DNA from: Escherichia coli | Lineage (GTDB): Bacteria > Pseudomonadota > Gammaproteobacteria > Enterobacterales > Enterobacteriaceae | NCBI RefSeq assembly: GCF_044324785.1 | Contig: NZ_CP172127.1 | DNA length: 64,000 nucleotides | Direction: 5' to 3' (one strand) | In this document: positions 11,042 through 59,417 of the stretch, piece by piece | Numbering within the stretch: the first letter of the stretch is position 1 | Layout of the letters: each line of letters opens with the position of its first letter | The notes under the pieces: model-generated | The model's database searches: none | What the model saw: the letters and a program-made list of their open reading frames with translations, nothing else | What the model was told of the DNA's origin: nothing | Program-made: the position numbers and the translations under genes

Positions 11042-11052
11042 TGGTTATTCCC

Positions 11053-12276: not shown

Positions 12277-12291
12277 CTCATTAAACCTGGG

Positions 12292-12624
12292 TTACTGGCT
12301 GACTTTAATATCTTGTAATAAAGAAAGGCTGCCCTGCTGGACAAAATTAAACGCCACTTTGTCGCCGGTTTTAATTTCACTCATTTTCGTCTGCGGGGTG
12401 ATAGTAAAGCGCATGGTCATCTCCGGCCAGTTCACGGCAGCAATCGGATCGTGATGGATGGTGATTTTTTTGCTTTCCAGATCAACACCTTTTACCACGC
12501 CAGTGGCGCTAATAACCTGCGGTTGTACTTCGCTCATGGTTTCATGATGATGTTCGTTAGCCTGGGCATTAAAGCCAATAACGGTAAACAGACTGAACAT
12601 TGCGACTTGCAGTGCTTTTTTCAT
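12292..12624 (-). CDS. cusF: Periplasmic Cu(I)/Ag(I) metallochaperone CusF
   Basis: 110-aa ORF with signal peptide and His-rich region (ANEHHHETMSE). Confidence 0.9.
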   Translation of the reverse strand: MKKALQVAMFSLFTVIGFNAQANEHHHETMSEVQPQVISATGVVKGVDLESKKITIHHDPIAAVNWPEMTMRFTITPQTKMSEIKTGDKVAFNFVQQGSLSLLQDIKVSQ

Positions 12625-12647
12625 TTATTCTCTCCTGGAGTTAAAAA

Positions 12648-27289: not shown

Positions 27290-30051
27290 TTTGCCAGTGG
27301 GACGAATACCATCACCTGCTGGCGAGGCTGTCTCCGGCAGGACGGCTGGAAAAGTTTGACTATCATCTGACACTCGGTCAGTTAAGCCGTTACACGGCGG
27401 CAGACGGCGCGGAGTGGCAGTACCGCTATGATGAGCGCGGCCTGCTCAGCAACATCACCGACCCTGCCGGGCAGACGTGGACACAGCAGTGCGATGAACG
27501 CGGCCTGCCGGTGAGTCTGGTGTCGCCACAGGGCGAAGAGACCCGGCTGGCGTACACCGCTCAGGGGCTGCTGTCGGGGATATTCCGCCAGGATGAACGG
27601 CGTCTGGGCATAGAGTACGACCACCACAACCGGCCGGAAACACTCACCGACGTGATGGGCCGTGAACACCACACCGAATACAGCGGTCACGACCTGCCGG
27701 TGAAGATGCGCGGCCCCGGCGGTCAGTCAGTGCGCTTACAGTGGCAGCAGCACCATAAACTGAGCGGCATTGAACGTGCTGGAACCGGCGCGGAAGGATT
27801 TCGCTATGACCGCCACGGCAACCTGCTGGCCTGGACGGACGGCAACGGTGTTGACTGGACAATGGAATACGGCCCGTTTGATTTGCCGGTGGCGCGAACG
27901 GACGGTGAAGGCCACCGCTGGCAGTACCGCTACGATAAAGACACGCTGCAACTGACAGAAGTCATCAATCCGCAGGGCGAGTCATACCGTTATATTCTCG
28001 ACAACTGTGGGCGGGTGACGGAAGAGCATGACTGGGGCGGCGTGGTCTGGCGTTACCGCTATGACGCCGATGGTCTGTGTACCGCCAGGGTTAACGGCCT
28101 GGAGGAAACCATCCTCTACAGCCGGGACGCCGCAGGCCGCCTGGCAGAAGTCATCACCCCGGAAGGGAAAACGCAGTATGCGTATGACAAATCCGGCAGG
28201 CTGACGGGTATCTTCAGCCCGGACGGCACATCACAGCGCACCGGCTACGACGAACGCGGGCGGGTGAATGTCACCACTCAGGGCCGACGGGCCATTGAAT
28301 ACCACCACCCCGATGAACACACCGTCATCCGCTGTATCCTGCCACCGGAAGATGAACGCGACAGACACCCCGGTGAATCCCTGCTGAAAACCACCTACCG
28401 CTACAACGCCGCCGGAGAACTGACGGAGGTTATCCTGCCGGGGGATGAGACGCTGACGTTCAGCCGTGATGAGGCAGGACGTGAAGTGCTCCGGCACAGT
28501 AACCGGGGTTTTGCCTGTGAACAGGGCTGGAATGCAGCCGGTCAGCTTACCAGCCAGCGCGCCGGATTTTTCCCGGCGGAAGCCACATGGGGCGGACTGC
28601 TCCCCTCACTGGTGCGGGAGTACCGTTACGACAGCGCGGGCAATGTGTCGGCTGTCACCAGCCGGGAAGACTACGGACGGGAAACACGGCGGGAGTACCG
28701 GCTGGACCGGAACGGCCAGGTCACAACGGTGACAGCCTCAGGCACCGGGCTGGGCTATGGCGAAGGCGACGAGACTTATGGCTATGACAGCTGCGGCTAC
28801 CTGAAGGCGCAGTCTGCGGGCAGGCACCGGATAAGTGAAGAGACTGACCAGTATGCCGGAGGCCACCGGCTGAAACAGGCCGGAAACACGCAGTATGACT
28901 ATGACGCCGCAGGCCGGATGGTCAGCCGCACCAGACACCGTGACGGCTACCGCCCGGAAACAGAGCGGTTCCGGTGGGACAGCCGGGACCAGCTGACCGG
29001 GTATTGCAGCGCACAGGGGGAGCAGTGGGAATACCGCCACGACGCCAGCGGCAGGCGGACGGAAAAACGCTGCGACCGGAAGAAAATCCGTTTTACGTAC
29101 CTGTGGGACGGCGACAATATTGCGGAAATCCGGGAATACCGCGATGATAAACTGTACAGCGTACGGCACCTGGTGTTTAACGGCTTTGAGCTGGTAAGCC
29201 AGCAGTGCAGCCGGGTACGGCAGGCGCATCCGTCCGTGGCCCCGCAGTGGGTGACGCGAACGAATTATGCGGTGAGCGACCTGACAGGCCGCCCGCTGAT
29301 GCTCTTTAACAGTGAAGGTAAAACCGTCTGGCGGCCGGGACAGACCAGCCTGTGGGGGCTGGCACTCAGCCTGCCCGCAGACACCGACTACCCGGACCCG
29401 CGCGGGGAGCTGGACCCGGAAGCCGACCCCGGCCTGCTGTATGCAGGACAGTGGCAGGATACGGAATCAGGGCTGTGCTATAACCGGTTCCGGTACTACG
29501 AGCCGGAAACCGGAATGTACCTGGTGAGTGATCCGCTGGGGTTGCAGGGGGGTGAGCAGACTTACCGGTATGTGCCGAATCCTTTAAGATATAAAGATTT
29601 CTATGGGCTTAGTAAGAGTTCAATAATAACGAGAGGAAAGAATGCTGGTCATGGCTATGCAGCCAGCGTTACACCTGGAGGCAAAGGTACGGTGTTGGCT
29701 GGTCACGGAGGATCAAAATTTGGCGATAAAATGATTATACCAGAAGGCGTATCGATAACGATGCCGAGAGATGGTATTAAAATATCAGATATGACTGGAA
29801 AATTACTGGAATCTGGTAATGTGGATGATATAATTAAAGCTGCAAGTAATAATCCTCGTGTAGCTAGCGATCTTGAAGGTTGGGTTACTTATTTGCCCGG
29901 CACTGAAATCCCTGATTATATTTTAAAACCACCCACCAATCTTAACATACTGGAAAATTCAGTAACGGTGAACACTTCAACTTATTTATCTCAAATGGTA
30001 AATGCTGGTCAAGGTAATGTAATCTGGGCTGCATGCACCGAATTTTTTTAA
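27290..30051 (+). pseudogene. rhs: Orphan rhs module: 3' part of the rhs core (no in-frame start; reading frame opens at 27255) fused to an alternative ~155-aa C-terminal toxin domain
   Basis: Homology to main rhs begins ~27290 (main 21565) and is near-identical from 27385; frame has a stop at 27252-27254 and no ATG until 27511; core ends ...DPLGLQGGEQTYRYVPNP then diverges (LRYKDFYGLSKSSIITRGKNAGHGYAAS...). Confidence 0.8.
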
Positions 30052-31025: not shown

Positions 31026-32315
31026 AGGAAAAGATCACGTAACGCTCCTTTTTTGTACTAAATAATTCGCATTTTATGTTTAAAAATTGAGATATTCCTC
31101 ATTACCTAAAGCTGTTTTTTATTGCTTACACATGATCAAATACTCCTTACATAATTAAGGATAACAAAATGTAACTTAAAAAATTGATGGAACATATTTC
31201 TATTATCCCCGATTACAGACAAGCCTGGAAAGTGGAACATAAATTATCGGATATTCTACTGTTGACTATTTGTGCCGTTATTTCGGGTGCAGAAGGTTGG
31301 GAAGATATAGAGGATTTTGGGGAAACACATCTCGATTTTTTAAAACAATATGGTGATTTTGAAAATGGTATTCCTGTTCACGATACCATTGCCAGAGTTG
31401 TATCCTGTATCAGCCCTGCAAAATTTCACGAGTGCTTTATTAACTGGATGCGAGATTGCCATACTTCAGATGATAAAGACGTCATCGCAATTGATGGAAA
31501 AACACTCCGGCATTCTTATGGCAAGAGTCGCCGCAGGGGAGCGATTCATGTCATTAGTGCGTTCTCAACAATGCACAGTCTGGTCATCGGACAGATCAGG
31601 ACGGATGAGAAATCCAATGAAATTACAGCTATCCCTGAACTTCTTAACATGCTGGATATTAAAGGAAAAATCATCACAACTGATGCAATGGGTTGCCAGA
31701 AAGATATTGCAGAGAAGATACAAAAACAGGGCGGTGATTATTTATTCGCTGTAAAAGGAAATCAGGGGCGGCTTAATAAAGCCTTTGAGGAAAAATTTCC
31801 ACTGAAAGAATTAAATAATCCAGAGCATGACAGTTACGCCATTAGTGAAAAGAGTCACGACAGAGAAGAAATCCGTCTTCATATTGTTTGCGATGTCCCT
31901 GATGAACTTATTGATTTCACGTTTGAATGGAAAGGACTGAAGAAATTATGCGTGGCAGTCTCCTTTCGGTCAATAATAGCAGAACAAAAGAAAGAGCCAG
32001 AAATGACGGTCAGATATTATATCAGTTCTGCTGATTTAACCGCAGAGAAGTTCGCCACAGCAATCCGAAACCACTGGCACGTGGAGAATAAGCTGCACTG
32101 GCGTCTGGACGTGGTAATGAATGAAGACGACTGCAAAATAAGAAGAGGAAATGCAGCAGAATTATTTTCAGGGATACGGCACATCGCTATTAATATTTTG
32201 ACGAATGATAAGGTATTCAAGGCAGGGTTAAGACGTAAGATGCGAAAAGCAGCCATGGACAGAAACTATCTCGCGTCAGTCCTTGCTGGGAGCGGGCTTT
32301 CGTAATCTTTCCCTG
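31026..32315 (+). mobile_element. ISAs1-family insertion sequence (H-repeat element), copy 2, direct orientation relative to copy 1
   Basis: Same terminal sequences as copy 1 (left GGAAAAGATCACG, right ATCTTTCCCTG); transposase ORF inside. Confidence 0.8.
31187..32305 (+). CDS. ISAs1-family transposase (H-repeat protein), copy 2
   Basis: 372 aa from ATG 31187; the upstream ATG of copy 1 is followed here by TAA (ATGTAA), so this copy starts at the internal Met; a few substitutions relative to copy 1. Confidence 0.8.
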
Positions 32316-41230: not shown

Positions 41231-41899
41231 ATGGTGAAATTGATGAAAAAAAACACAGATGATGGGGCTAAAATTTACACACCACTTACCCTAAAGCTTT
41301 ATGACTGGTGGGTTTTGGGAGTATCAAATCGGCTTGCATGGGGATGTCCTACAAAGGAACACCTTCTTCCACACTTTCTGGAACATTTAGGTAACAACCA
41401 TCTGGATATTGGTGTTGGAACTGGGTTTTACCTTACTCACGTACCTGAGAGTAGTCTGATATCTTTAATGGATTTGAACGAAGCTAGCCTGAACGCGGCA
41501 TCTACAAGGGCTGGGGAATCAAAAATTAAACATAAAATTAGCCATGATGTTTTTGAACCTTATCCCGCGGCGTTACATGGCCAATTTGATTCCATTTCCA
41601 TGTTTTACCTTCTTCACTGCCTGCCTGGAAATATATCTACAAAAAGCTGTGTAATACGCAATGCGGCGCAGGCCTTAACTGACGATGGAACTCTATACGG
41701 AGCCACAATTCTTGGCGATGGAGTTGTGCACAATAGCTTCGGTCAAAAACTGATGCGCATTTACAATCAGAAAGGCATCTTTTCAAACACAAAAGATTCC
41801 GAAGAAGGCTTAACACATATACTCTCAGAGCATTTCGAGAATGTTAAAACCAAGGTTCAAGGTACTGTAGTAATGTTTTCCGCTTCAGGGAAAAAATAG
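41231..41899 (+). CDS. Class I SAM-dependent methyltransferase (intact counterpart of the K-12 DLP12 ybcY pseudogene, by position)
   Basis: 222-aa ORF with glycine-rich SAM-binding motif DIGVGTGFY; ybcY assignment is from context only. Confidence 0.55.
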   Translation: MVKLMKKNTDDGAKIYTPLTLKLYDWWVLGVSNRLAWGCPTKEHLLPHFLEHLGNNHLDIGVGTGFYLTHVPESSLISLMDLNEASLNAASTRAGESKIKHKISHDVFEPYPAALHGQFDSISMFYLLHCLPGNISTKSCVIRNAAQALTDDGTLYGATILGDGVVHNSFGQKLMRIYNQKGIFSNTKDSEEGLTHILSEHFENVKTKVQGTVVMFSASGKK

Positions 41900-42403
41900 C
41901 ATCCAACCGCAGCACGTTCTTGCATACGCCGTGTCTGCGGTTTAATTTTCACTCTCAAATATTGTAGTTAAGTACAATCATGATTCTTTGGACTATATAA
42001 ATTTTCTTGTAATTAGTTCTTTAGCCGAAATTTTAAAACAATTATTTATTCAAGGGATGGACTCTATTAGGAACTATCTCAAAAACATGAATAACCACCA
42101 TCTTACGATTGAATTATTTTACAGAGTATTCTTATTGAGAAAAACAACAGCAGGTACACCAAATAATATAGAAATGTAAATTTAGGTTCATTAATCTTTT
42201 GAGTTACAACCTAAACTTTCCGTTAATCACTAAGATATCAATAGATTATACTCACTGAGCGCACGTTTTTTACAATTATTATTTCTCACATCAAAATGCG
42301 CATACCAATCTGTTATTTGACACTTTCTTATTTGTTACTAGAGTTAATTGGGTGCTGACAAGGCACATGTTATTTACAATTTGAAAATCAGAGGAGAAAT
42401 GAT

Positions 42404-42586
42404 ATGACCGAACATCGTGGCGGTGCAGGTAATTTCGCTGAAGATCGACAAAAAGCTTCTGACGCTGGTCGTAAAGGCGGCCAACATAGTGGCGGTAATT
42501 TTAAAAACGATCCACAAAGAGCATCAGAAGCAGGGAAAAAAGGTGGTCAGAATAGCCATGGTGGCGGCCGTAAATCTGACTCTTAA
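42404..42586 (+). CDS. KGG-repeat general stress protein (YciG/YmdF family)
   Basis: 60-aa ORF with repeated RKGGQ.SGGNF / KKGGQNSHGG motifs. Confidence 0.6.
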   Translation: MTEHRGGAGNFAEDRQKASDAGRKGGQHSGGNFKNDPQRASEAGKKGGQNSHGGGRKSDS

Positions 42587-42616
42587 TTTATTACCCCCTA
42601 CATTCGTGAATAACTG

Positions 42617-42638
42617 AAGCTAACTGCGAGCCTACGGG
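42617..42638 (+). promoter_or_regulatory. Intercistronic hairpin (CTGCGAGCC-TAC-GGGCTCGCAG) between the yciG-like and yciF-like genes
   Basis: Perfect 9-bp inverted repeat seen in sequence; no U-tract, so more likely an mRNA-stabilising or processing structure than a terminator. Confidence 0.4.
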
Positions 42639-42658
42639 CTCGCAGTGAAAACTCTGGA

Positions 42659-43165
42659 GTGATTATGCAAATTAAATCTGTTGAAGATATCTTCATCCAC
42701 TTATTATCGGATACATACAGCGCTGAGAAACAACTAACAAAGGCACTGTCTAAACTTAGTCGCTCTGCATATAGTGATAAATTAACCGCTGCTTTTCAGT
42801 CACATCTTGATGAGACACATGGTCAAATTGAACGCATCGATCAGGTTGTTGATTCTGAAGATGGTCTTAAATTGAAAAGAATTAAGTGTGCCGCAATGGA
42901 AGGACTTATCGAAGAGGCGAATGAGGTAATTGAAAGCACTGATAAAAATGAAGTACGTGATGCAGCATTGATTGCTGCAGCACAAAAAGTAGAGCACTAT
43001 GAAATTGCCAGTTATGGCACTTTGGTAACACTCGCTGAGCAATTAGGATATAAAAAAGCGGCTAAACTCCTGAAAGAAACACTGGAAGAGGAAAAAGCTA
43101 CTGATGTCAAATTAACAGATCTGGCATTTAATAACGTTAATAAAAAAGCTCAGGATAACTCCTGA
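42659..43165 (+). CDS. Ferritin-like DUF892 protein (YciF-like)
   Basis: 168-aa ORF containing SVEDIFIHLLSDTYSAEKQLTKAL, resembling YciF. Confidence 0.65.
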   Translation: MIMQIKSVEDIFIHLLSDTYSAEKQLTKALSKLSRSAYSDKLTAAFQSHLDETHGQIERIDQVVDSEDGLKLKRIKCAAMEGLIEEANEVIESTDKNEVRDAALIAAAQKVEHYEIASYGTLVTLAEQLGYKKAAKLLKETLEEEKATDVKLTDLAFNNVNKKAQDNS

Positions 43166-43201
43166 ACTATAGACTTCAATTTCTTTTAGGATAAACAGAT
43201 T

Positions 43202-43708
43202 ATGAATAGAATTGAACATTACCATGACTGGCTTCGTGATGCACATGCGATGGAGAAACAAGCTGAAAAAATGCTTGAGTCTATGGCCAGCCGGATAGAA
43301 AACTATCCAGAGTTACGTTCCAGAATTGAGCAGCACATTAGCGAAACAAAGAACCAGCTTTCACAGCTTGAAAGCATACTTGATCGTAATAATATTTCGC
43401 GCTCTGTCATTAAAGACTCTATGAGTCAAATGGCCGCGTTTGGGCAATCCATTGGTGGAATTTTTCCATCTGATGAAATTGTCAAAGGTTCGATCAGTGG
43501 CTATGTGTTCGAACAATTTGAAATTGCGTGTTACACATCTCTTCTCGCAGCAGCCAAAAATGCGGGTGATACAGCCTCAGTACCCATTATTGAAGCAATT
43601 CTTAATGAAGAAAAACAAATGGCTGAATGGCTTCTTAACCATATTCCTGACACCACTGAACAATTCATGGTCAGATCTGAAATTGATGGAGTTGAAGCCA
43701 AAAAATAA
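43202..43708 (+). CDS. Ferritin-like DUF892 protein (YciE-like)
   Basis: 168-aa ORF paralogous to the upstream gene (WLRDAHAMEKQAEKMLE...); same operon. Confidence 0.65.
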   Translation: MNRIEHYHDWLRDAHAMEKQAEKMLESMASRIENYPELRSRIEQHISETKNQLSQLESILDRNNISRSVIKDSMSQMAAFGQSIGGIFPSDEIVKGSISGYVFEQFEIACYTSLLAAAKNAGDTASVPIIEAILNEEKQMAEWLLNHIPDTTEQFMVRSEIDGVEAKK

Positions 43709-43726
43709 TTCTTTTGAGGAGGCATT

Positions 43727-44617
43727 ATGTTTAGACACGTGAAAAAACTTCAATATACAGTACGTGTAAGTGAGCCAAACCCAGGCTTGGCTAATCTACT
43801 TTTAGAACAATTCGGCGGGCCACAGGGTGAGCTTGCAGCAGCATGCCGATACTTCACTCAAGGCTTAAGTGATGAAGATGCAGGCCGAAGGGATATGCTG
43901 ATGGACATAGCAACAGAAGAACTAAGTCATCTCGAAATTATTGGTTCTCTTGTTGGTATGCTCAACAAAGGTGCAAAAGGAGCACTTGCTGAAGGAACTG
44001 AGAATGAAGCTGAGCTTTACCGTTCCTTAACTCAAAATGGCAATGACAGCCATATAACTTCTCTCCTCTACGGAGGAGGCCCAGCATTAACTAATTCAGC
44101 TGGAGTACCCTGGACTGCAGCTTATGTTGATACTATTGGCGAAGTCACGGCCGATCTTCGTTCAAATATTGCAGCTGAAGCTCGGGCAAAGATCATTTAC
44201 GAACGTCTCATTAATGTTACTGATGATCCTGGAGTAAAAGACACTCTGGCATTTTTAATGACCAGGGAAGCAGCACACATGCTTTCATTTGAAAAAGCAT
44301 TACATTCAATTCGTAACACCTTTCCACCAGGGAAATTACCACCAATTGAGAAATACAAAAACGTATATTACAACATGTCAGAAGGTGAAGACGTCAGAGG
44401 TAGTTGGAACAGTGATGAAAACTTTGACTATGTTTCCGATCCAGTTCCAGCGGTTGACGGTGGGGATGGGAAGGCCTCGATAAATCTTTCGACCAAGCAA
44501 GAAGCTATGATAAAAGCTATGGCAACAAGGTTGAAATCCCATGAAGACATCAATCCTGTCACTGGCGCTGAGCTTGCTGAAGGAGAACCACAAACAAAGA
44601 TAAATAGTAAAAACTAA
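43727..44617 (+). CDS. Non-haem manganese catalase (KatN-like)
   Basis: 296-aa ORF with Mn-catalase-like segments (EELSHLEIIG, ARAKIIYERLI, REAAHMLSFEKAL); operon structure mirrors Salmonella yciGFE-katN. Confidence 0.65.
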   Translation: MFRHVKKLQYTVRVSEPNPGLANLLLEQFGGPQGELAAACRYFTQGLSDEDAGRRDMLMDIATEELSHLEIIGSLVGMLNKGAKGALAEGTENEAELYRSLTQNGNDSHITSLLYGGGPALTNSAGVPWTAAYVDTIGEVTADLRSNIAAEARAKIIYERLINVTDDPGVKDTLAFLMTREAAHMLSFEKALHSIRNTFPPGKLPPIEKYKNVYYNMSEGEDVRGSWNSDENFDYVSDPVPAVDGGDGKASINLSTKQEAMIKAMATRLKSHEDINPVTGAELAEGEPQTKINSKN

Positions 44618-44736: not shown

Positions 44737-45318
44737 TTAAACTTCTGGTATTACAGGCCACTCAATATCAGGTGCAGTTGATGTATCAACACGGTTCAGC
44801 AACACCCGATACTTCTTCCAGGCTTCCAGCAACGAGTTTTCTTCCTCCGTTGCGATCTCCAGATCTACAGCATCCTGAAGTGGCGCAATATGCTCACTGG
44901 CTACCTGCATCAGGCTGTTTTTTGTTTCTTCCACCTCCCGGATCCGGAACAGTTTTTCTGCTTCTGCATCTTTCACCCAGGCTGTGCCGTTCCACTTCTG
45001 AAACTCCCCTTCCGGCGATAACCAGGTAACATTTTCCGGTAACGGACCGAGTTCAGAAATAAATAACGCGTCCCCTGACGCTACGTCATAAACCGTTTTA
45101 CCCCGATGATCTTCAACGAGATGCCACGATGCCTCATCACTGTTGAAAACAGCCACGAAGCCTGCCGGAATATCTGGCGGTGCAATATCGGTACTGTTTG
45201 CTGGCAGACCTGTATGAGGCGGAATATATGCATCACCTTCACCAATAAATTCATTAGTTCCGGCCAGCAGATTATAAATTTTTATGGTCCGTGGTTGTTC
45301 ACTCATTCTGAATGCCAT
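44737..45318 (-). CDS. tfa: Tail fibre assembly protein Tfa (lambda-type)
   Basis: 193-aa [37 protein letters not shown]..., recognised as lambda Tfa; downstream of stf. Confidence 0.85.
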
Positions 45319-48300
45319 TATGCAAGCCTCACAATATAGTTAAATGCGATGTTTTTGACGGTGTTTTCCGCGTTACCAGCAGCGTTAACGGTGATGGTGT
45401 GTCCATGTGAACCAATTGCAACGGAGTGCGTGTGTGCACCAATACCGACAGTATGTGCATGTGCGCCTGCGCTTGCAGCAGTGCCGGACAGCGAGTGGGT
45501 ATGAGCACCATCTGATGATGTCTTCCCTGCATTACGAGTCTGGCCACTACCGCTTGTTGTGCTCATAATCCCCGCGCTTAGATTTGAAATCGCGGTATAA
45601 CCATTAGGGAAAATGCTCGTGTTCGTGCCACCAAATGCACCGGAACTCTTGTGTTGGTGCGCACCGGCACTATTTGCAGTCCCGCTAATACTATGGGTAT
45701 GCGCCCCGGTGTTATTCGTGGATTTGGTTCCGTAATCAAACGACGATGTGTTTTTCGTCCCCAAATCCGTACTGGATGCGCTGGCGCTGTGGGTGTGCGA
45801 TTTAATGCCGTCCTGTTCCTGAGACAATACGGCCCGACCACTGGCAGGTTTGCCCTTAATCGTCCAGCCACGCATATCAGGGATCACGCCTGACGGATAA
45901 GCGGCTGCAAGTTTCGGGTAAGCAGATTTGTCAAAAGTCTGCCCCTGCATCAGGGCATAACCAGACGGAACGGTATCTGATGGCCACGGGATTGGTGCGC
46001 CGACTGGGTAGCTTTCTGGTGGAAGATTTTTCGAGGTATAAACTTCTGCCCAGTCTTCCTCAAAACCATAACCGTCTCTTGAAGAACGGTAGAACAGACC
46101 ACCATTTCTGTAATGCGCCTTCATCTGCAAGGTCCGGCAACTTCCGACTCCGGTATAGAAGTTAACCAGAATATAGCTGTCGCCAGAGCGGGTGACATTG
46201 TAAGCGCCTGATTCGGCATTCCAGGGAACGCCACCATCCGCATCGGCATATGTATCCGTTGCCCTTCTGGCAAAAGCAGCCACATGCGCGGCGGTTAAAG
46301 TAATATCTTTGGAACCATCAAACTCAACACCAGAAACCAGTCTTGGCGTTTGTAGCTTTGTTGCTGTTAATGCATTACCGTTCAGACTTGCGGACAGTTT
46401 GGTTCCAATAACCAGTTCGCCGGTTGCGTTATCAATAGCAAACGGTCTTAATGTATTCCAGCCACCATAAACATCACCTTGATTGGTAAGCAGCAGGTAA
46501 GTTTTAGCGCCATCATTACGCCATAATGCACCATACTCCCCACCTATCATTCGAATCTGATTACCACCACGCGCTACAATTTCGTCTGTGGCAAAAAGTT
46601 TTTTGCACGACAAGTTATCGTTAACGATTAACGAATGAGACTCATAAAAACCACGCCCACTCTTAAAATCAAGGATAACGTCCGCCGCGATACATTCAGT
46701 CGCTGGATTTGTTGCCCCAAACTTATAGGTCGTATCATTAACAATGAGATCAGCACCAGGTGCGGATATTGACAGGCCATCTTCGATAAACGCAAAAACA
46801 GGGAAAGCAGCGCCATCAACATAGAACACAGAGCGCAAATCATCGCCCTTATTACTCATCATTATTGAGTGGATGGCTCGTTCATTGTTTTGATATTGCC
46901 AGAACATTCCATAAGCATAACGCCCCCTGTAAGTCCAGCCACCAGGCATAACAAATCCGTTAAACTCGCAGTTATTCATCGGATCGCCTGCGGTTCGCGT
47001 TGCCGTGGTGATAATGACCCTTGATGCCAGTTCGCTTACTGAGCCAGCAGAACGCATAACAACAACAGGGTAATATTTTCCAGATGTTGCACCTGCAGGA
47101 GCGTTAACCAGCACATAACGCATACCACGCTTATCAGCAAAGTCTGTTTTACTGACCGCGTTAATGTTGTTCAGGAAGCGTCCCTTATCGGGTATATCAG
47201 CGCCGTTCTGGTCTTTCTGCAGACGTTTCTCTGCATTGTCATAGGCTGATTTTACTGCCTTTGGCGTTGCCGCCAGCGTTTCAGACGTACTGTTGGTCGC
47301 ACTGCTGAGCTGTACTATCCCCTTTTTCGTCGTGCTCGCATCCTCAAGCGCCACGGCGGATGCAATATCCTCTGCCCGTTTTGCCGCTGTCTCGGCGCGC
47401 GTTGCCGCGGATTCCGCCGTACTTTTGCTCTGTGCTGCCGCCGTCGCACTGCCAGCTGCCTCTGTCGCCTTCGTGGATGCTGTCGTGGCGCTGCCCTTCG
47501 CTGCGGACGCTTGTCTGGTCGCCTCATCTTTTGAAGCAGACGCCGATGATGCCGATGACGCCGCCGAACTGGCGGACGATGCGGCAGCCGTTTTTGAGGA
47601 TTCTGCGCTGGTTTCCGACGCTTTCGCGTTCGTCTCGGATGTCTTCGCTGCGGATGCAGACCTCTCTGCTACCGCAGCCTGTTCAGTGGCTTCGCCAGCC
47701 TTCGTTGTGGCTGCTGAGGCGGCCGATGCTGCGCTTTCTGCCGATTTCCCGGCGGTGGTGGCACTGGCTGCGGCCTCCTCCGCTTTGGCTGACGCCTCTC
47801 GGGCTGATGATGCAGCGGTAGTTTCTGAACCTGCCGCAGCTGAGGCGCTCTGTTCCGCTGCCGTTTCAGAAGACCTGGCGTTTGTCTCGGACGTTTTTGC
47901 CGCCTTCGCAGAATTTGCTGCCGCCGTTGCCGAGGAAGCTGCACTACCGGCGCTTGATAATGCGTTCGTTTCTGATGATTTTGCCGCCTCTTTTGAAGCC
48001 GCCGCATCCCTGGCTGAGGTGGTAGCTTCTGACGCCTTTGTGGTCGCGGTGGATGCAGAAGTGGCTGCTAATTGTTGTGACGCTGCCGCATTCGTTTCTG
48101 ACGTTTTCGCCGCACCGGCACTGGTAGCCGCCGCGCTTTTTGAGGACTCTGCAGCGGCAGCACTTTTTGATGCCTCAGAGGCTTTTGCTGATGCCGTTCC
48201 TGCGCTGGAAAAAGCCTCCTGAGCCGACGTCGCGGCCTGTCCGGCTGACGTGCTGGCTGCGCGTGCTGAGTCTGCAGCATCAGTCGCATGGGTTGCCGCC

Positions 48301-48725
48301 TCACGGGCAGATGTGCTGGCATCGCTGGCTGACTTCTTCGCGGCTGCCGTGTTCTGTGCCACTGCGGACGCGTTACGCGCCACCTCTTCCACCATCAGTT
48401 CAAAACGGCGCAGTGCCTCCGGACGGGCATCCTCCTCCGTCATGGCACCGAGAAAATCATTCAGCGTACCGGGTTGAGAATCTTCATACACGGTGATGGT
48501 CCCGGCATGTGACGGCGGGAAGCCTTCCACCAACAGAATAACGCTGTACTGACCGTACTCAACGTCCATGCTGTAACGCCCGGCTTCATCCGGATTTTCT
48601 GAGGCCAGTGTGTTCACCACCACCGTGGTGCTGTTACGTTTTGCTTTCAGCTGGATTGTGCAGTTCTGTACCGGTTTTCCTGTGCCGTCTTTCAGTACAC
48701 CTGAAATCTTTACTGCCATATTCAC
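45318..48725 (-). CDS. stf: Side tail fibre protein Stf (lambda-type) with long Ala/Ser/Thr-rich repeat region
   Basis: 1135-aa ORF; N-terminus [30 protein letters not shown] matches lambda Stf; ~370 residues of tail-fibre repeats; conserved C-terminal region. Confidence 0.85.
47285..48395 (-). repeat. Low-complexity tail-fibre repeat array within stf
   Basis: Encoded protein is almost entirely A/S/T/E/K repeats; the GC-rich repeats generate long spurious antisense ORFs (e.g. 47293..48222 +). Confidence 0.7.
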
Positions 48726-49452: not shown

Positions 49453-52400
49453 TCAACGAATACTGATGCCGGAAGCGGCTTTTTTGGTCACAATCACCGT
49501 ACAGTCGGTGATATTACCTGCCCACTGATTGCCTTTATGGAAAACCTTAAACTCCAGAGTGACGCTTCCCCTGCCACTAGGCATATCAATAACCGCACTG
49601 TAGCTACCGGGAATGGCCCCTTTAGTTTCTCTGGATGCGATTAATACACCGTTTTTGCGAACTTCAAAACCATAACCCGTGTATCTTGTACCTCCCGGGT
49701 TATTACCACTTCCCGGATCGCTATACGCTATTCCGTTAAAGATAATGGGCGGAATAATGATTTGACGGTCAAAGTTATGATCATCGCTGATGGTGACTGT
49801 AACCGTCCCGTTTGGTGTTTCCGTGTTACCCCACGTACCAGCCTGTTTCGGAAATGATTTGGATACAGCTTTAACGAAGTCACCTCTGACCTGAGTCGCC
49901 TCCAGCATGCCCTTAATCGTACAGTTCTGGTTAATCGTGACATTGTTGAGCGTTCCTGAGTTCGCATTCACACTACCACTGATATCCGCATTTTTAGCGG
50001 TCAGCTTTCCGTCTGATGTCAGGGAAAATACCGGAGGACTGCCACCGCTGGTAATGGTGGGGGCTGTCAGGCGCTTCAGGAACACGTCGTTCATGAATAT
50101 CTGGTTGCCCTGCGCCACAAACATCGGCGTTTCATTCCCGTTTGCCGGGTCAATAAACGCGATACGGTTAGCGGCAACCAGAAACTGGCTCAGCTTGCCT
50201 TCCTCCGTGTCCTCCATGCTGAGGCCAATACCCGCGACATAATGTTTGCCGTCTTTGGTCTGCTCAATTTTGACGCCCCACATGGCATTCCATTTATCGT
50301 TAGCGTCCTTCCACTCTTTCGAAAACTCATCCAGTCTGCTGGCGTTATCCTCCGTCAGATCAACTTTTTCCAGCAGCGCTTTACCGAGATGGGATTCGGT
50401 TATCTTGCCTTTGAAAAAATCCAGGTAACCTTCCGCATCATCGCTCGCCCGACCGACGGCCTCCACGAATGCCGATTTGCCAACGGTGTTCACACTGCGG
50501 ATATAAAAGTAATAATCATGGCCCGGTTTGATATTGATACTGGCGGCTATCCAGTACAGCGCCGTACCAAGATAGCGGGCTGTGGTTTCAACCTGCCTGA
50601 TATCGGTAATCCGCTTTTCCGAGAACCAGAACTCAAACTGTACCGTCGGGTCATAAACGGCAAGATGCGGCGTGGCGGTTATCTGAAAATAGCCCGGCGT
50701 CAGCTCAATCCTCGACGGTGCTGCCGGTGCGGCAATCCGGAACGATACCGACGCCGGATCGCCCTGCTGCCCCCACGCATTTACCGCCCGGACTGTCAGC
50801 CTGTAGTTCCCCAGCGCCAGTTGCGTGAAGCGGTATGTGGTTTCCGTCGTCCGGGCCGTGCTGACCAGCCGCTCACTGCCGTCATCCGCTGTTACGGTCA
50901 GACGGAGCAGGAAGCTCACGCCCTTCACCACCTTCGGCGTGTCCCAGCGCGCCAGCACCTGATATTCCCCGCTGTCTGCGGTGACTTCGGCGGTCAGGTG
51001 CTGCACCGCTGGCGGCGTGACACCATTCACCGTGCCGCTCTGGTCGCCGTCAAAGTGCGCCCCGTTATCCACGATGGCTTCTTTTTCCGGTACATGCTGC
51101 ACGGCAGTGATGGCATACGTGCCGTCATCGTTCTCACGGATACTCACACAGCGGAACAGGCGCTGACGCAACGTCGGCAACTTCAGCCCCCACACACTGT
51201 ATTCTGCAACGCCGTCAGGAACCCGGTTCACTTTCACCTTAAGTCCGTCGGTGACGGACTGAACCTCCACGCTGACCGGATTACCACTTCCGTCAACCAG
51301 GCTTATCAGCGTGGTACCGGAGGATGGCAGCGTGATTTCACGGTCGAGCGTCAGCGTCCGGGTCTGGCTGTTCACCGCCAGCACGCGACCACCGGTGCTG
51401 ATACCGGCATAGTCATCATCGCAGATTTCAATGACATCGCCCGGTACATGGCGAAGCCCTTCAGCACCCACGCTGAAATCCACGGTCTGCGTCTCCAGCA
51501 GTTCCGTTTTAATCAGCCACAGCCCGGCGCGGTGTGCCTGCCCCCGGCTGGTACAGCCAAAGGCATCCATCTTCGTGACATTACGACCGTAACGGGCAAT
51601 GGCCTGCGTATCTTCAACAAGCTCTGTCGCCGTCTCCCAGCCGTTGTTCGGGTCAATCCAGTTCACCTCAACGGCATTATGGCGGTCCTTCAGGGCGCTG
51701 AAGCTGTAGCGGAACGGCGCGCCATCATCCGGCATCACCACATTACTGCGGTTATAGGTCCACACCTTATCTGATGGTCGGTCCTGCACGAACGTCAGCG
51801 TCTGCCCGTTCCATACCGGCATACAGCGCATCGCCGAGCAGAAATCACTGAGCACATCCCACGCCTTACGCTGCGTGGTCAGGTAGGCATTACAGGTGAT
51901 GCGCGGCTCCGTGCCGCCAAAACCGTCCGGCACTGACTGGTCGCAGTACTGGCCGATGACATACAGCGCCCATTTATCCACATCCGCCGCACCAAGACGT
52001 TTCCCCATGCCGTAGCGCGGGTGGGTCAGCATATCCCACAGACACCAGGCCGGGTTGTTGCTGTATGCCGGCTTAAACGTTCCGTCACAGATACCGCTGT
52101 ATTGCCGCGTCTGCGGGTTATAGTTCGACGGCACCTGCAGAATGCGCCCGCGAAGATGATAATTACGGCTCACCTGCTGGCTGCCGAACTGCTCCGAGTC
52201 CACCTGCACGCCGACCAGTGCCGTGTTCGGGTAGCACTGTTTCACATCGATGATTTCGGTGTATGACGACCAGAGCGTTTTGTTCTGCAGCTGGTCTGTG
52301 GTGCTGTCCGGCGTCATCCTGCGCATCCGGATATTAAACGGGCGCGGCGGCAGGCTACCCACCACCACCGAGGCCAGATACTGCGAGGTGGTTTTGCCCT

Positions 52401-52866
52401 TAATGGTGATGTCTTTTTCCGTCACCCAGCCACCGTTACGTTGTATCTGAACCAGCAGACGGACTTCCGACGGATTCCTGTCACCCTTTGAGGTGGTTTC
52501 CACCAGTGCCTGTACACCGAAGGTAAAGCGCAGACGGTCGATGTTTGCAGACGTAATGGTGCGGGTGATCGGCGTGTCATATTTCACTTCCGTACCCAGC
52601 ACCGTCTCGGAGCCGGAGGATTCAAACCCCTCCGGCGGTGTCTGCTCCTGCTCACCGGCACGGAACACCACCGTGACACCGGAGATGTTGGTATTCCCCT
52701 CAGTGTCCAGCACCGGCGTACTGTTCAGCAGCACGCTTTTTAATCCATCCACCGGACCTTCAACCGGCCCTTCGCTGATGGCATCGATCACACTCAGCAA
52801 CTGCGTGGACTTCAGGTTGTCCTTCGCTTCGCGCGGGGTATGCCCCTTACTGCTTCCTTTACCCAT
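49453..52866 (-). CDS. J: Tail tip host-specificity protein J (central tail fibre)
   Basis: 1137-aa [40 protein letters not shown]..., recognised as lambda gpJ. Confidence 0.9.
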
Positions 52867-54943: not shown

Positions 54944-55272
54944 CAGTTCACCACCTGTTCAAACTCTGCGCTGAACTCAACACGCAGCATACTGACCCGC
55001 GACGACCATTTTGCGCAGGTCACCTTTATCTGCCGCCACTCATAAGGCGGCGTCCACAGAAAGGATTTCCAGCCCCCGTGCTCTTCCAGAAACGACTCCA
55101 GTACCGTGGCCTCCTCACGGGGGACAGAAAGCGTCACGCTGTACGTTTTCAGGTTGGCATTCAGCCCGGCAGGCGCTCGCTGAGAATAGCCATCACCAAA
55201 GCGCACCTTTCTTACAGAAGGGACCGAAGCCACATCCATACCGGGTTTCACTTTCCAGCGGAAGGTCTTCAT
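54943..55272 (-). CDS. M: Minor tail protein M
   Basis: 109-aa ORF MKTFRWKVKPGMDVASVPSVRKVRFGDGYSQ..., lambda gpM-like. Confidence 0.85.
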   Translation of the reverse strand: MKTFRWKVKPGMDVASVPSVRKVRFGDGYSQRAPAGLNANLKTYSVTLSVPREEATVLESFLEEHGGWKSFLWTPPYEWRQIKVTCAKWSSRVSMLRVEFSAEFEQVVN

Positions 55273-57830
55273 CGTCCACCTCCGGAGAACAGGCCACCAT
55301 CACGCATCTGTGTCTGAATTTCATCACGGGCACCCTTGCGGGCCATGTCATACACCGCCTTCAGAGCAGCCGGACCTATCTGCCCGTTCGTGCCGTCGTT
55401 GTTAATCACCACATGGTTATTCTGCTCAAACGTCCCGGACGCCTGCGACCGGCTGTCTGCCATGCTGCCAGGTGTACCGACATAACCGCCGGTGGCATAG
55501 CCGCGCATCAGCCGGTAAAGATTCCCCACGCCAATCCGGCTGGTTGCCTCCTTCGTGAAGACAAACTCACCACGGTGAACAATCCCCGCTGGCTCATATT
55601 TGCCGCCGGTTCCCGTAAATCCTCCGGTTGCAAAATGGAATTTCGCCGCAGCGGCCTGAATGGCTGTACCGCCTGACGCGGATGCGCCGCCACCAACAGC
55701 CCCGCCAATGGCGCTGCCGATACTCCCGACAATCCCCACCATTGCCTGCTTAAGCAGAATTTCTGTCATCATGGACAGCACGGAACGGGTGAAGCTGCGC
55801 CAGTTCTGCTCACTGCCGGTCAGCATCGCCGCCATATTCTGTGCAATACCATCAAAGGTCTGCGTGGCTGCACTTTTTACCTGCGACATACTGTCCGTGG
55901 CGCTCTCTTCCCACTCACTCCAGCCGGACTTCAGGCCTGCCATCCAGTTCCCGCGAAGCTGGTCTTCAGCCGCCCAGGTCTTTTTCTGCTCTGACATGAC
56001 GTTATTCAGCGCCAGCGGATTATCGCCATACTGTTCCTTCAGGCGCTGTTCCGTGGCTTCCCGTTCTGCCTGCCGGTCAGTCAGCCCCCGGCTTTTCGCA
56101 TCAATGGCGGCCCGTTTTGCCCGTTGCTGCTGTGCGAATTTATCCGCCTGCTGCGCCAGCGCGTTCAGGCGCTCCTGATACGTAACCTTGTCGCCAAGTG
56201 CAGCCAGCTGGCGTTTGTACTCCAGCGTCTCATCTTTATGCGCCAGCAGGGATTTCTCCTGTGCAGACAGCTGGCGACGTTGCGCCGCCTCCTCCAGTAC
56301 CGCGAACTGACTCTCCGCCTTCCACAAATCCCGGCGCTGCTGGCTGATTTTCTCATTTGCTCCGGCATGCTTCTCCAGCGTCCGGAGTTCTGCCTGAAGC
56401 GTCAGCAGGGCAGCATGAGCACTGTCTTCCTGACGATCGCCCGCAGACACCTTCACGCCGGACTGTTTCGGCTTTTTCAGCGTCGCTTCATAATCCTTTT
56501 TCGCCGCCGCCATCAGCGTGTTGTAATCCGCCTGCAGGATTTTCCCGTCTTTCAGTGCCTTGTTCAGTTCTTCCTGACGGGCGGTATATTTCTCCAGCGG
56601 CGTCTGCAGCCGTTCGTAAGCCTTCTGCGCCTCTTCGGTATATTTCAGCCGTGACGCTTCGGTATCGCTCTGCTGCTGCGCATTTTTGTCCTGTTGAGTC
56701 TGCTGCTCAGCCTTCTTTCGGGCGGCTTCAAGCGCAAGACGGGCCTTTTCACGATCATCCCAGTAACGCGCCCGCGCTTCATCGTTAACAAAATAATCAT
56801 CCTTGCGCAGATTCCAGATGTCGTCTGCTTTCTTATACGCAGCCTCTGCCTTAATCAGCATCTCCTGCGCGGTATCAGGACGACCAATATCCAGCACCGC
56901 ATCCCACATGGATTTGAATGCCCGCGCAGTCCTGTCTGCCCAGGTCTCCAGCGTGCCCATGTTCTCTTTCAGGCGGCGGGTCTGGTCATCAAACCCTTTC
57001 GTTGCGGCCTCGTTCGCCGCCTGCAATGCCCCGGCTTCATCGCCGGAACGCTGCAACTGAGCAACATACGCAATCTGCTCCGCCGTCACGTTATGGAACT
57101 GGCGAGCCATCGCCGTCAGCCCCGACGTCGGGTCTGTGGTCAGCTTCCCGAAGGCTTCAGCGACCTTGTCCACCTCCACGCCGGATGCAGAGGAGAAACG
57201 CGCCACACTCTGGCTGATGGACGCAATCTGAGCCTCACCGCTTACCCCCGCCTTAACCAGTGCGCTGAGTGACTCGCTGGTCTGGTTAAACGTCAGCCCT
57301 GCCGCCTGCCCGGCTCTGGACAGGACCAGCATACGATCTGCCGTCAGTCCCGCCTGATTGCCGGAAAGGACCAGCGTTTTGTTGAAATCGGACAGGGTTG
57401 AGTTGCCCTGATACCAGGCATACGCCAGCGCACCGGTCGCCACCGCCAGCGAGGTGGCCCCCACCATCGGCAGGGTGATCGCACCGGCAAGCCCCCTGAA
57501 CATGGGGATCATCCCGCCGAAGGAGTCCTTCACCTGCCCCCCCTGTTGCAGCAGGATCAGCCACGGACTTTGCCCGCCTGCAAGCTGCGTGGCCACGTCG
57601 GTGAACTGTGCAGGCAGCATACGCATGGCGGCTTTATACTGCCCGACGGAAATCCCCGCTTTCTGTGCAGCCAGCGCCTGTCGGCTCAGCGACTGTTCAA
57701 CGACTGCCGCTGTTTTTTTCGCATCACTTTCCGTACCGGAAAAATGACGCCTGACTCTGGCCATCTGCTCGTCAAATCTGGCCGCATCCAGACTCAAATC
57801 AACGACCAGATCGCCTACCGGTTCAGCCAT
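55269..57830 (-). CDS. H: Tail tape-measure protein H
   Basis: 853-aa ORF, coiled-coil-rich with Gly-rich C-terminal region; lambda gpH-like by sequence and position. Confidence 0.9.
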   Translation of the reverse strand: MAEPVGDLVVDLSLDAARFDEQMARVRRHFSGTESDAKKTAAVVEQSLSRQALAAQKAGISVGQYKAAMRMLPAQFTDVATQLAGGQSPWLILLQQGGQVKDSFGGMIPMFRGLAGAITLPMVGATSLAVATGALAYAWYQGNSTLSDFNKTLVLSGNQAGLTADRMLVLSRAGQAAGLTFNQTSESLSALVKAGVSGEAQIASISQSVARFSSASGVEVDKVAEAFGKLTTDPTSGLTAMARQFHNVTAEQIAYVAQLQRSGDEAGALQAANEAATKGFDDQTRRLKENMGTLETWADRTARAFKSMWDAVLDIGRPDTAQEMLIKAEAAYKKADDIWNLRKDDYFVNDEARARYWDDREKARLALEAARKKAEQQTQQDKNAQQQSDTEASRLKYTEEAQKAYERLQTPLEKYTARQEELNKALKDGKILQADYNTLMAAAKKDYEATLKKPKQSGVKVSAGDRQEDSAHAALLTLQAELRTLEKHAGANEKISQQRRDLWKAESQFAVLEEAAQRRQLSAQEKSLLAHKDETLEYKRQLAALGDKVTYQERLNALAQQADKFAQQQRAKRAAIDAKSRGLTDRQAEREATEQRLKEQYGDNPLALNNVMSEQKKTWAAEDQLRGNWMAGLKSGWSEWEESATDSMSQVKSAATQTFDGIAQNMAAMLTGSEQNWRSFTRSVLSMMTEILLKQAMVGIVGSIGSAIGGAVGGGASASGGTAIQAAAAKFHFATGGFTGTGGKYEPAGIVHRGEFVFTKEATSRIGVGNLYRLMRGYATGGYVGTPGSMADSRSQASGTFEQNNHVVINNDGTNGQIGPAALKAVYDMARKGARDEIQTQMRDGGLFSGGGR

Positions 57831-58661
57831 ACCGGACTCCTCCTGCGATCCCTTCTGATACTGTCATCAGCATTACGTCATCCTCCGTCATGTCCGCCAC
57901 ATCCGGGGAAGCGGGGATAACTTCATTCCCGTCCGGGCCAAAGCGGACACCTCCGGCAAGCCCTGCCGCTTTCTGCATCAGCACATCATCTTCAGGCTCT
58001 TCGTCAGCCTCGCGCCGGTTCAGCAGACTGAAATCCAGCGGATGCATATCCGGATCGCTGAAAAACAGGCTGAGCACGGTGTACGTCAGCCCGGAAAAGT
58101 GCATATCCAGCAGAACATCATGAAAATAATGGGTACTGTAAAAGCGGTGCCAGTCGGCATACTCCGTGGATGACATCCCGGCAAGCATGGCACGCCAGTC
58201 GGGTCGCCCCATCTCACGCGCCAGTTTCAGGGCAAAACTCAGCTCACCGTCGAACACTTTCCCGCAGAAACAGGCTCTGCGGGCCCGGCGTCCTCTGTCT
58301 GTTCAGGGGCATTATTCACCACAAACTCATACATACCAGACAGCCGGTACACCACGTTTTCAGCATGAGAAATTGCCTCCGTGGGCCAGGTGGTAAGCAC
58401 TTCCTGCTCAATCTGTTTAACGGCTTCATTCATGGACGGCATCTGCGTCTTCTGCGGATGGTTATGCCACAGGGACATCGCCACCAGAAACGCGCCGGTT
58501 CTGATGGCGTCTTCCACAGTAAACTTCCGGTTGCTGTCTGACTCCGCCTGTTCTGCCTGCCGTTTCATCAGGGCGAGATGCTCAATGCGCTGCAGGGCTG
58601 ACAGTTCAGAAAGCGTGACGGTCACACCGTTATGTTCAAATGATTCGGTTTTCAGGAACAT
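57823..58661 (-). CDS. G-T: Tail assembly chaperone G-T fusion produced by programmed -1 ribosomal frameshift
   Basis: G frame (58239..58661) and overlapping -1 frame ORF (57823..58257); slippery heptamer G GGA AAG at 58257..58263 (minus strand) in the last codons of G, as in lambda. Confidence 0.75.
58239..58661 (-). CDS. G: Tail assembly chaperone G
   Basis: 140-aa ORF MFLKTESFEHNGVTVTLSELSALQRIEHLALMKRQ..., lambda gpG. Confidence 0.85.
   Translation of the reverse strand: MFLKTESFEHNGVTVTLSELSALQRIEHLALMKRQAEQAESDSNRKFTVEDAIRTGAFLVAMSLWHNHPQKTQMPSMNEAVKQIEQEVLTTWPTEAISHAENVVYRLSGMYEFVVNNAPEQTEDAGPAEPVSAGKCSTVS
58257..58263 (-). promoter_or_regulatory. Programmed -1 frameshift slippery site GGGAAAG (G/G-T)
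   Basis: Heptamer in X XXY YYZ register of the G frame (codons GCG GGA AAG), 6 codons before the G stop. Confidence 0.7.
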
Positions 58662-58676
58662 CGCTGACTCTCCGGA

Positions 58677-59417
58677 TTAACTGGCGGTGACGGTAATTTC
58701 TGCAACCGCAGCAAACTCACCATTACCGGATACAACCGGAATGTTGACCTTGCCTGCAGCAACGCCGTTCACGGTGATGGTCATACCACTGACCGACACG
58801 GTGGCTTTTGTTTTATCCGCAGACACCGCACGAAAGCTCTTGTCGGTTACGCCCTCCGGCTGGAAGGCCACGGTCAGCGTGGTGCTCTGCCCTTTCACCA
58901 CCGAGGTGCTGGCAGGCGTCACGGTCATGCCGGTTGCCGCTGTTACCGTGCTGCGATCTTCTGCCATCGACGGACGTCCCACATTGGTGACTTTCACCGT
59001 GCGGGTGATCACTTCCTTCGCCGTCACCGCCTTACCGATACTGCTGACCCAGCCACGGAACACATCGACCGTGCCGTTCGGGAAGCGGATTTTATAGGCA
59101 CGGGTATCGCCTTCATTAAACCACGCCAGCAGCGCCTGCTGCCCCTGCTCTCCGGGCATCCACGCCAGCGTGAAGCTGGTATCTCCGGCAGATTTCTGCC
59201 CCTGCCCGGTCGCAGTCCAGTCTGCATCTTCATCATCGAGATAGCTGTCGTCATAGGACTCAGCGGTCAGTTCGCCGGGCGTCAGGTCTTTAACTTTTGC
59301 CAGACGCGACCAGTCAACGTCTGAAAGCGGATTCGCATAAGGGTCACCGCTCCCCTTATAAACCCACAGGGTGGTCCCGGCACCTTTCACCGGCATTGTA
59401 GGATTTGGTACAGGCAT
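58677..59417 (-). CDS. V: Major tail tube protein V (with C-terminal Ig-like Big_2 domain)
   Basis: ORF 58677..59447; ATG at 59417 gives 246 aa [31 protein letters not shown]..., lambda gpV. Confidence 0.9.

What the first reader, a model, noticed from the sequence alone, without database searches (positions are those of the whole stretch)
58239..58270. Conserved lambda-type -1 frameshift site for the G-T tail chaperone
The slippery heptamer G GGA AAG sits in the last codons of G in the correct register, with the overlapping T frame continuing to 57823. This is well known biology, reported only because it confirms the prophage tail assembly module is intact.
Basis: established knowledge. Interest (0 to 1): 0.15.

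Follow-up and report, generated by a model that had tools for sequence, protein, structure and literature searches.

The report
Lambda G/GT tail-chaperone frameshift site
This is the textbook ribosomal frameshift site of phage lambda's tail-assembly chaperone genes G and T, present unchanged in a lambda-like prophage of E. coli; it is real, but ordinary and already fully described.

Summary
On the minus strand, GGGAAAG lies at 58263-58257. It is read G GGA AAG in the frame of a 140-codon ORF (58661-58239) and sits at codons 134-135, five codons before the TGA stop. The -1 frame is open from the heptamer to a stop at 57825-57823, and that stop overlaps the start of the tape-measure gene at 57830.

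Both ORFs are 100% identical in protein to lambda gpG and gpT. The 1101 bases around them differ from lambda at one base, which lies in H. The genes sit between the tail-tube gene V and the tape-measure gene H and match Pfam PF06894 and PF06223.

The heptamer alone is not statistically unusual: 13 copies in the window against 7.8 expected. Its setting is. Only 2 of 411 slippery heptamers have the required ORF layout, and the other one is an alternate-frame artefact inside stf.

All 73 distinct related viral sequences keep GGGAAAG in the same register. Thirteen of them carry a non-start codon where lambda's T "GTG start" is annotated.

The claim that the site "confirms the tail module is intact" overreaches. 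Separately, lambda tail proteins Z to I match over their full length at 99.5-100% identity and J over all but its last residue at 89%. Already known; low interest.

The parts
58257..58263 (-). Slippery heptamer G GGA AAG (X XXY YYZ in the G frame), the site of the -1 ribosomal shift.
   Evidence: Corresponds to lambda 10109-10115. Invariant in 73/73 distinct relatives.
58239..58661 (-). Gene G (140 codons plus TGA), the tail assembly chaperone and zero-frame product gpG, 15.6 kDa.
   Evidence: 100% identical to lambda G. Pfam PF06894 Phage_TAC_2, E = 9e-62. GGAG lies 8 nt upstream of the ATG.
57823..58257 (-). T reading frame (144 codons plus TGA). It is expressed as the C-terminal part of the 279-aa gpGT fusion: join 58661..58257 with 58257..57823, re-reading base 58257.
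   Evidence: 100% identical to lambda T. Pfam PF06223 Phage_tail_T, E = 2e-14. There is no Shine-Dalgarno sequence before the GTG at 58257, and that GTG is replaced by GTC, GCA, GTA or GCG in 13/73 relatives.
58677..59417 (-). Gene V, the major tail (tube) protein and upstream neighbour. It is the partner that the T part of gpGT binds, according to the literature.
   Evidence: 100% identical to lambda V. Pfam PF16461 plus Big_2.
55269..57830 (-). Gene H, the tape measure protein and downstream neighbour. Its ATG overlaps the T stop. It is the partner that the G part binds, according to the literature.
   Evidence: 853 aa, 99.8% identical to lambda H. Pfam PF06791 plus PF09718.
58179..58249 (-). 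Predicted, unproven RNA structure beginning 7 nt after the heptamer. Listed only as a candidate modulator of the shift.
   Evidence: MFE -42.4 kcal/mol, z = -2.3. The consensus fold keeps it, but 0 of 27 pairs show compensatory change and the covariation term is -0.46.

Best explanation
This is the lambda G/GT programmed -1 ribosomal frameshift site. Ribosomes translate G from the ATG at 58661. Most of them read GGA AAG and five more codons, stop at the TGA at 58241-58239, and release gpG (140 aa). A small fraction slip back one base on G GGA AAG. The tRNA-Gly re-pairs from GGA to GGG and the tRNA-Lys from AAG to AAA. Those ribosomes then read GTG TTC GAC ... in the T frame as far as 57823 and make the 279-aa fusion gpGT. 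According to the lambda literature the ratio is about 30 gpG to 1 gpGT, or about 96% to 4%. The G part binds the tape measure protein H. The T part recruits the tube protein V. Neither product ends up in the virion, and the ratio matters for tail assembly. Shown here: the sequence anatomy, identity with lambda, gene context, family membership and conservation of the site. Inferred from lambda experiments on the identical sequence: the slip itself, its frequency and the chaperone mechanism.
For: The sequence and register were read directly. G and T are 100% identical in protein to lambda, and the surrounding 1101 nt differ at 1 base. The order V-G-T-H matches lambda 8955-13103. Pfam matches are PF06894 and PF06223. 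Only 2 of 411 slippery heptamers in the window have the required ORF layout. In 73 distinct related viral contig sequences, with fusion-protein identity down to about 74%, GGGAAAG is invariant, in the same register, with the G stop at the same distance. In that alignment of those sequences plus the window's own, it sits in a 9-nt invariant run (GCGGGAAAG), although 55% of all columns and 71% of G-frame third positions vary. The annotated GTG 'start' of T has no Shine-Dalgarno sequence and is a non-start codon in 13/73 relatives, so T depends on the shift. Literature: PMC5009743 (30:1 ratio, gpG binds gpH, the T part binds gpV), PMC3296357 (slippery sequence GGGAAAG in its Table 1, about 96% zero frame, sensitivity to tRNA-Lys U34 thiolation) and PMC7618472 (G_GGA_AAG). 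All three cite Levin, Hendrix and Casjens 1993.
Against: Nothing in the sequence argues against it. No protein or ribosome-profiling data exist for this particular prophage, so expression and the shift are inferred. GenBank's lambda record and PGAP both annotate T as a separate CDS starting at the GTG. That is an annotation convention, not evidence of independent initiation.
Confidence: 0.97

Rival explanations
1. T is a separate gene translated on its own from the GTG at 58257, as the database records annotate it, and the heptamer is incidental.
For: A GTG stands at the head of the T ORF. The lambda RefSeq record and PGAP in E. coli A17 annotate T as a separate CDS.
Against: No Shine-Dalgarno sequence precedes the GTG, whereas G, H and V each have GGAG or GAGG. 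The GTG is GTC, GCA, GTA or GCG in 13 of 73 relatives, while the heptamer one base upstream is invariant. The literature reports gpG and gpGT as the products (PMC5009743, PMC3296357).
Confidence: 0.02
2. The heptamer is a chance occurrence and has no recoding role.
For: GGGAAAG occurs 13 times in the window against 7.8 expected, so the motif is common.
Against: It is the only heptamer in the correct register within the 64-nt stretch where a G-to-T shift is possible. Only 2 of 411 heptamers have the ORF layout. All three synonymous third positions inside it are invariant in 73 relatives, against a 71% background of variable third positions.
Confidence: 0.005
3. The G-T fusion arises from transcriptional slippage by RNA polymerase on the GGG or AAA runs, not from ribosomal slippage.
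For: Homopolymer runs are present, and transcriptional slippage does produce fusions in other systems (PMC5009743).
Against: The runs are only 3 nt long, and to my knowledge productive transcriptional slippage needs much longer A or T runs. The shift frequency in lambda responds to tRNA-Lys anticodon modification, which points to a ribosomal event (PMC3296357).
Confidence: 0.005

Closest known systems
Bacteriophage lambda genes G and T (gpG/gpGT), -1 programmed ribosomal frameshift at G GGA AAG (Levin, Hendrix and Casjens 1993; lambda NC_001416 9711-10549)
   Same: G and T DNA are identical to lambda across 57823-58661. The proteins are 100% identical, with the same heptamer, register, distance to the G stop, T stop overlapping the H start, and the same neighbours V and H.
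   Different: Only the host element differs. This is not lambda itself but a mosaic lambdoid prophage lying next to ompT. In the closest sequenced genome the equivalent prophage occupies the argU/DLP12 site. J is 89% and lom 45% identical to lambda, and stf is uninterrupted.
The conserved tail-assembly-chaperone frameshift of long-tailed dsDNA phages (Xu, Hendrix and Duda 2004, as summarised in PMC5009743)
   Same: [quoted passage not shown]
   Different: None of substance. This is the founding example of the class, not a divergent member.

Membership tests
Lambda-type G/GT tail assembly chaperone with -1 programmed ribosomal frameshift | Two overlapping ORFs located between the major tail (tube) protein gene and the tape-measure protein gene. 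| tested here: met
   V 59417-58677, G 58661-58239, T frame 58263-57823 and H 57830-55269, all on the minus strand.
Lambda-type G/GT tail assembly chaperone with -1 programmed ribosomal frameshift | [quoted passage not shown] | tested here: met
   G GGA AAG at 58263-58257, codons 134-135 of 140. The -1 frame is open for 146 codons. It is the only heptamer in register within the 64-nt shift window.
Lambda-type G/GT tail assembly chaperone with -1 programmed ribosomal frameshift | The downstream ORF has no translation start of its own. | tested here: met
   There is no Shine-Dalgarno sequence before the only start-like codon, the GTG at 58257. That codon is a non-start codon in 13/73 relatives. 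This is indirect evidence, because initiation was not measured.
Lambda-type G/GT tail assembly chaperone with -1 programmed ribosomal frameshift | Sequence homology to gpG (Pfam PF06894) and gpT (Pfam PF06223). | tested here: met
   PF06894 at 206.9 bits (cut-off 27) and PF06223 at 54.1 bits (cut-off 25.9). 100% identity to lambda G and T.
Lambda-type G/GT tail assembly chaperone with -1 programmed ribosomal frameshift | The shift site is conserved among relatives beyond what coding alone requires. | tested here: met
   73/73 distinct sequences keep GGGAAAG. A 9-nt invariant run stands against 55% variable columns, and the three synonymous positions are all invariant.
Lambda-type G/GT tail assembly chaperone with -1 programmed ribosomal frameshift | Actual synthesis of gpG and a minor fusion gpGT (about 30:1), both required for tail assembly. 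| not testable with these tools
   Established for lambda, which has the identical sequence (PMC5009743, PMC3296357). Not measured for this prophage.
-1 PRF signals with a downstream stimulatory RNA structure (IS911/dnaX type) | A conserved stem-loop or pseudoknot 5-9 nt downstream of the heptamer, supported by covariation. | tested here: inconclusive
   A structure is predicted 7 nt downstream (z = -2.3). No pair shows compensatory change and the covariation term is -0.46. The region is too conserved to decide.

The most novel reading that the evidence does not exclude
The strongly conserved 70 nt downstream of the heptamer (58249-58179) may fold into a structure starting 7 nt after the slip site that sets lambda's roughly 4% frameshift level. 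That would be a stimulatory or tuning element not currently catalogued: no Rfam family reaches its gathering score anywhere in the G-T region. The evidence does not exclude this. The predicted fold is somewhat more stable than shuffles (z = -2.3), and every substitution seen in the outer stem keeps pairing through G-U or G-C. Those substitutions are synonymous pyrimidine transitions opposite G, though, and such changes keep pairing by default. The conservation could equally reflect the T protein sequence.
Probability: 0.1. Interest if true: 0.25.

Novelty: already known. Interest (0 to 1): 0.05.

Why it matters
It matters little as a discovery. It is useful for annotation. The window carries lambda's own G/GT recoding signal unchanged, so the correct gene model is G plus a G-T fusion made by ribosomal slippage (279 aa). 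The free-standing 'T' CDS that both the lambda RefSeq record and PGAP still show is not the right model. It is also one necessary, but not sufficient, element of a functional tail-assembly module in this prophage. A recent preprint (PMC12803255) reports that the N-terminal core shared by gpG and gpGT is sensed by an Avs17 defence protein, which gives tail chaperones some current relevance.

Tried and rejected
1. I tested whether heptamer frequency alone is significant. It is not: 13 observed against 7.8 expected. The argument therefore rests on register, ORF layout and conservation.
2. I looked for a conserved downstream stimulatory RNA structure with a single-sequence fold and an alignment fold of 26 distinct relatives. 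No covariation appeared, so the question stays open and I make no claim.
3. I scanned Rfam over the whole window. No family reaches its gathering score in the G-T region.
4. I tried to read Xu, Hendrix and Duda 2013 (PMC3762263) for details of the site. The paper is not held. Levin et al. 1993 is not in the library either, so its details are cited through reviews.
5. A second heptamer, GGGAAAT at 47750 on the minus strand, passed the ORF-layout filter. I rejected it because its 'zero frame' is an unused alternate frame inside stf, and its '-1 frame' is simply the stf gene frame.
6. I considered whether the window is lambda itself. It is not: over 25 kb the best phage matches are mosaic relatives at 96-97% identity, and the flanks are E. 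coli chromosome.

Full report
**Observation.** Read on the minus strand, the region is ...GTT TCT GCG GGA AAG TGT TCG ACG GTG AGC TGA.
- GGGAAAG occupies window 58263-58257.
- The enclosing ORF runs from the ATG at 58661 to the TGA at 58241-58239 and has 140 codons.
- The first G of the heptamer is a third codon position, so the register is X XXY YYZ. GGA and AAG are codons 134 and 135.
- Read from the heptamer in the -1 frame (GGG AAA GTG TTC GAC ...), the sequence stays open for 146 codons, to a TGA at 57825-57823. That stop overlaps the ATG of the next gene at 57830.

**Chance.**
- The heptamer is not rare. There are 13 copies on both strands against 7.8 +/- 2.5 expected from shuffles, and 4 of 100 shuffles reach 13.
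- The setting is what carries weight. I required an upstream frame open for at least 80 codons, a zero-frame stop within 30 codons, and a -1 frame open for at least 80 codons. Of the 411 XXXYYYZ heptamers (Y = A or T) in the window, only two qualify.
- The second, GGGAAAT at 47750 on the minus strand, is an artefact. Its '-1 frame' is the stf gene itself and its 'zero frame' is an unused alternate frame.
- A G-to-T shift is only possible in the 64 nt between the nearest upstream T-frame stop (58305-58303) and the G stop. GGGAAAG is the only heptamer there in the correct register. A GGGCCCG at 58286 is read GGG CCC in frame.

**Identity.**
- The 1101 bases 57700-58800 match phage lambda and its close kin at 99.9%. 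The single difference from NC_001416 is at window 57738, inside H.
- G and T translate to proteins 100% identical to lambda G (140 aa) and T (144 aa).
- Pfam assigns G to PF06894 (lambda tail assembly chaperone G, 207 bits) and the T frame to PF06223 (minor tail protein T, 54 bits).
- The neighbours are the tube protein V (PF16461 plus Big_2) and the tape measure H (PF06791 plus PF09718).
- The gene order V-G-T-H is that of lambda 8955-13103.

**Context.**
- The window is E. coli chromosome. It carries two sok matches (hokE in strain N3), the cus operon, a VgrG-Rhs element with ISAs1 copies, nfrBA, ybcH, envY and ompT.
- It then runs into the tail end of a lambdoid prophage that reads leftwards on the minus strand.
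- The prophage is a mosaic, not lambda. Over 25 kb the best phage matches are 96-97% identical relatives.
- Lambda proteins C to I match at 99.5-100%. J is 89% identical, lom 45%, and the side tail fibre gene is one uninterrupted 1135-codon ORF.
- In the closest genome, E. coli A17 (99.1% over 24 kb), the element is a full-length prophage at the argU/DLP12 site. It has an integrase, repressor and Cro, a Q-like antiterminator, lysis genes and terminase. That is the relative, however, not this window, which stops in the last 21 codons of the portal gene.

**Conservation.**
- A scan of viral contigs with the 279-aa fusion returned 80 loci, down to about 74% protein identity.
- They gave 73 distinct G-T sequences, 72 of which cover the site. 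With the window's own sequence that makes 73, and all 73 have GGGAAAG in the same register, with the G stop at the same distance.
- In the alignment of these sequences plus the window's own, 55% of all columns and 71% of G-frame third positions vary. The heptamer nevertheless lies in a 9-nt invariant run, GCGGGAAAG, and all three synonymous positions inside it are fixed.
- The base triplet after the slip is GTG in 60 sequences and GTC, GCA, GTA or GCG in 13. This is the triplet that databases annotate as the start codon of T.
- In the window there is also no Shine-Dalgarno sequence before that GTG, whereas G, H and V each have one.

Together these points argue that T is reached by frameshifting and not by its own initiation.

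**Mechanism.**
- Shown here: the anatomy, the identity with lambda, and the conservation.
- Taken from the literature on the identical lambda sequence:
  - About 4% of ribosomes slip -1 on G GGA AAG, giving roughly 30 gpG per gpGT.
  - The G part binds the tape measure gpH.
  - The T part binds the tube protein gpV and starts its polymerisation.
  - Neither product is in the virion, and the ratio is critical (PMC5009743).
  - The frequency depends on thiolation of tRNA-Lys U34 (PMC3296357, PMC7618472).
  - G GGA AAG is among the most shift-prone heptamers in E. coli (PMC5009743, PMC6924986).
- Computed from the sequence: gpG is 15.6 kDa. gpGT is 279 aa and 31.2 kDa, with the junction ...PVSAGK-VFDGELSF....

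**Downstream RNA structure.** A single-sequence fold places a multi-branched structure 7 nt after the heptamer (58249-58179), at -42.4 kcal/mol and z = -2.3. In 26 distinct relatives the consensus fold keeps it, but none of 27 pairs shows a compensatory change and the covariation term is -0.46 kcal/mol. The few substitutions are synonymous pyrimidine transitions opposite G, which preserve pairing by default. The question is left open. No Rfam family reaches its gathering score in the G-T region.

An intact heptamer does not by itself confirm that the tail module is intact. The separate protein-by-protein comparison supports coding integrity: Z, U, V, G, T, H, M, L, K and I match lambda over their full length (I lacks only its last residue), and J matches over residues 1-1131 of 1132 within an open ORF. 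Whether the prophage as a whole is functional cannot be told from this window.

**Verdict.** The finding is real, correctly located, correctly interpreted and already known. It is lambda's own G/GT frameshift signal carried by a lambdoid prophage. The practical value is for annotation: the correct model is G plus a slippage-joined G-T fusion, and not the separate T CDS shown in RefSeq and PGAP. Interest is low.

Noticed in passing
window 44777-44975 (-): Full-length match to Rfam RF02111 (IS009, a candidate small RNA), 227.9 bits against a gathering score of 117. It lies entirely inside the prophage tail-fibre-assembly gene tfa (44737-45318, minus strand).
   Followed up: no
window 45318-48725 (-) and 49453-52866 (-): The side tail fibre gene stf is one uninterrupted 1135-codon ORF, unlike the orf-401/orf-314 split in lambda. 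J (89%) and lom (45%) are much less like lambda than Z to I (99.5-100%), so a mosaic boundary lies near the I/J junction.
   Followed up: partly
window 41231-44617 (+): Between the prophage tfa gene and ompT lies a plus-strand cluster. PGAP names the equivalent genes in strain A17 as a SAM-dependent methyltransferase, a general stress protein, two ferritin-like proteins and a manganese catalase. It looks like a yciGFE-katN-type stress cluster (that resemblance is from memory). Whether it is prophage cargo or chromosomal was not determined.
   Followed up: no
window 1431-1585 and 1933-2089 (-): Two tandem sok antitoxin RNA matches (RF01794, 83.7 and 77.9 bits), corresponding to a duplicated hokE locus in strain N3.
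   Followed up: no
window 19462-24324 (+), 25025-26161 (+), 31184-32305 (+): An intact 1620-codon Rhs ORF downstream of vgrG (strain N3 has vgrG there, and its Rhs gene is frameshifted), followed by two ISAs1-family transposase ORFs and a second long ORF (27511-30051) that is probably another Rhs fragment.
   Followed up: no
lambda NC_001416 10115-10549 (L001 2044-2478); E. coli A17 L002 20824-21258: Both the lambda RefSeq record and PGAP annotate T as a free-standing CDS starting at the GTG inside the slippery heptamer, with no ribosomal-slippage join. This is an annotation shortcoming for a well-established recoding event.
   Followed up: yes
L004 (IMGVR_UViG_2695420576_000005), about 35 nt upstream of the heptamer: This relative has a 4-nt insertion in the 3' part of G and a G-frame stop 19 codons upstream of the heptamer. 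It may be a disrupted G gene, a second compensating indel, or a sequencing error.
   Followed up: no
L085 (E. coli A17, NZ_CP028757.1 1312000-1345000): The closest sequenced relative of this prophage is a full-length element at argU carrying intD, quuD, a porin, essD-rrrD-rzpD, bor, ybcV, ybcW and nohD. That is an undegraded counterpart of the K-12 defective prophage DLP12, joined to lambda's virion genes.
   Followed up: partly
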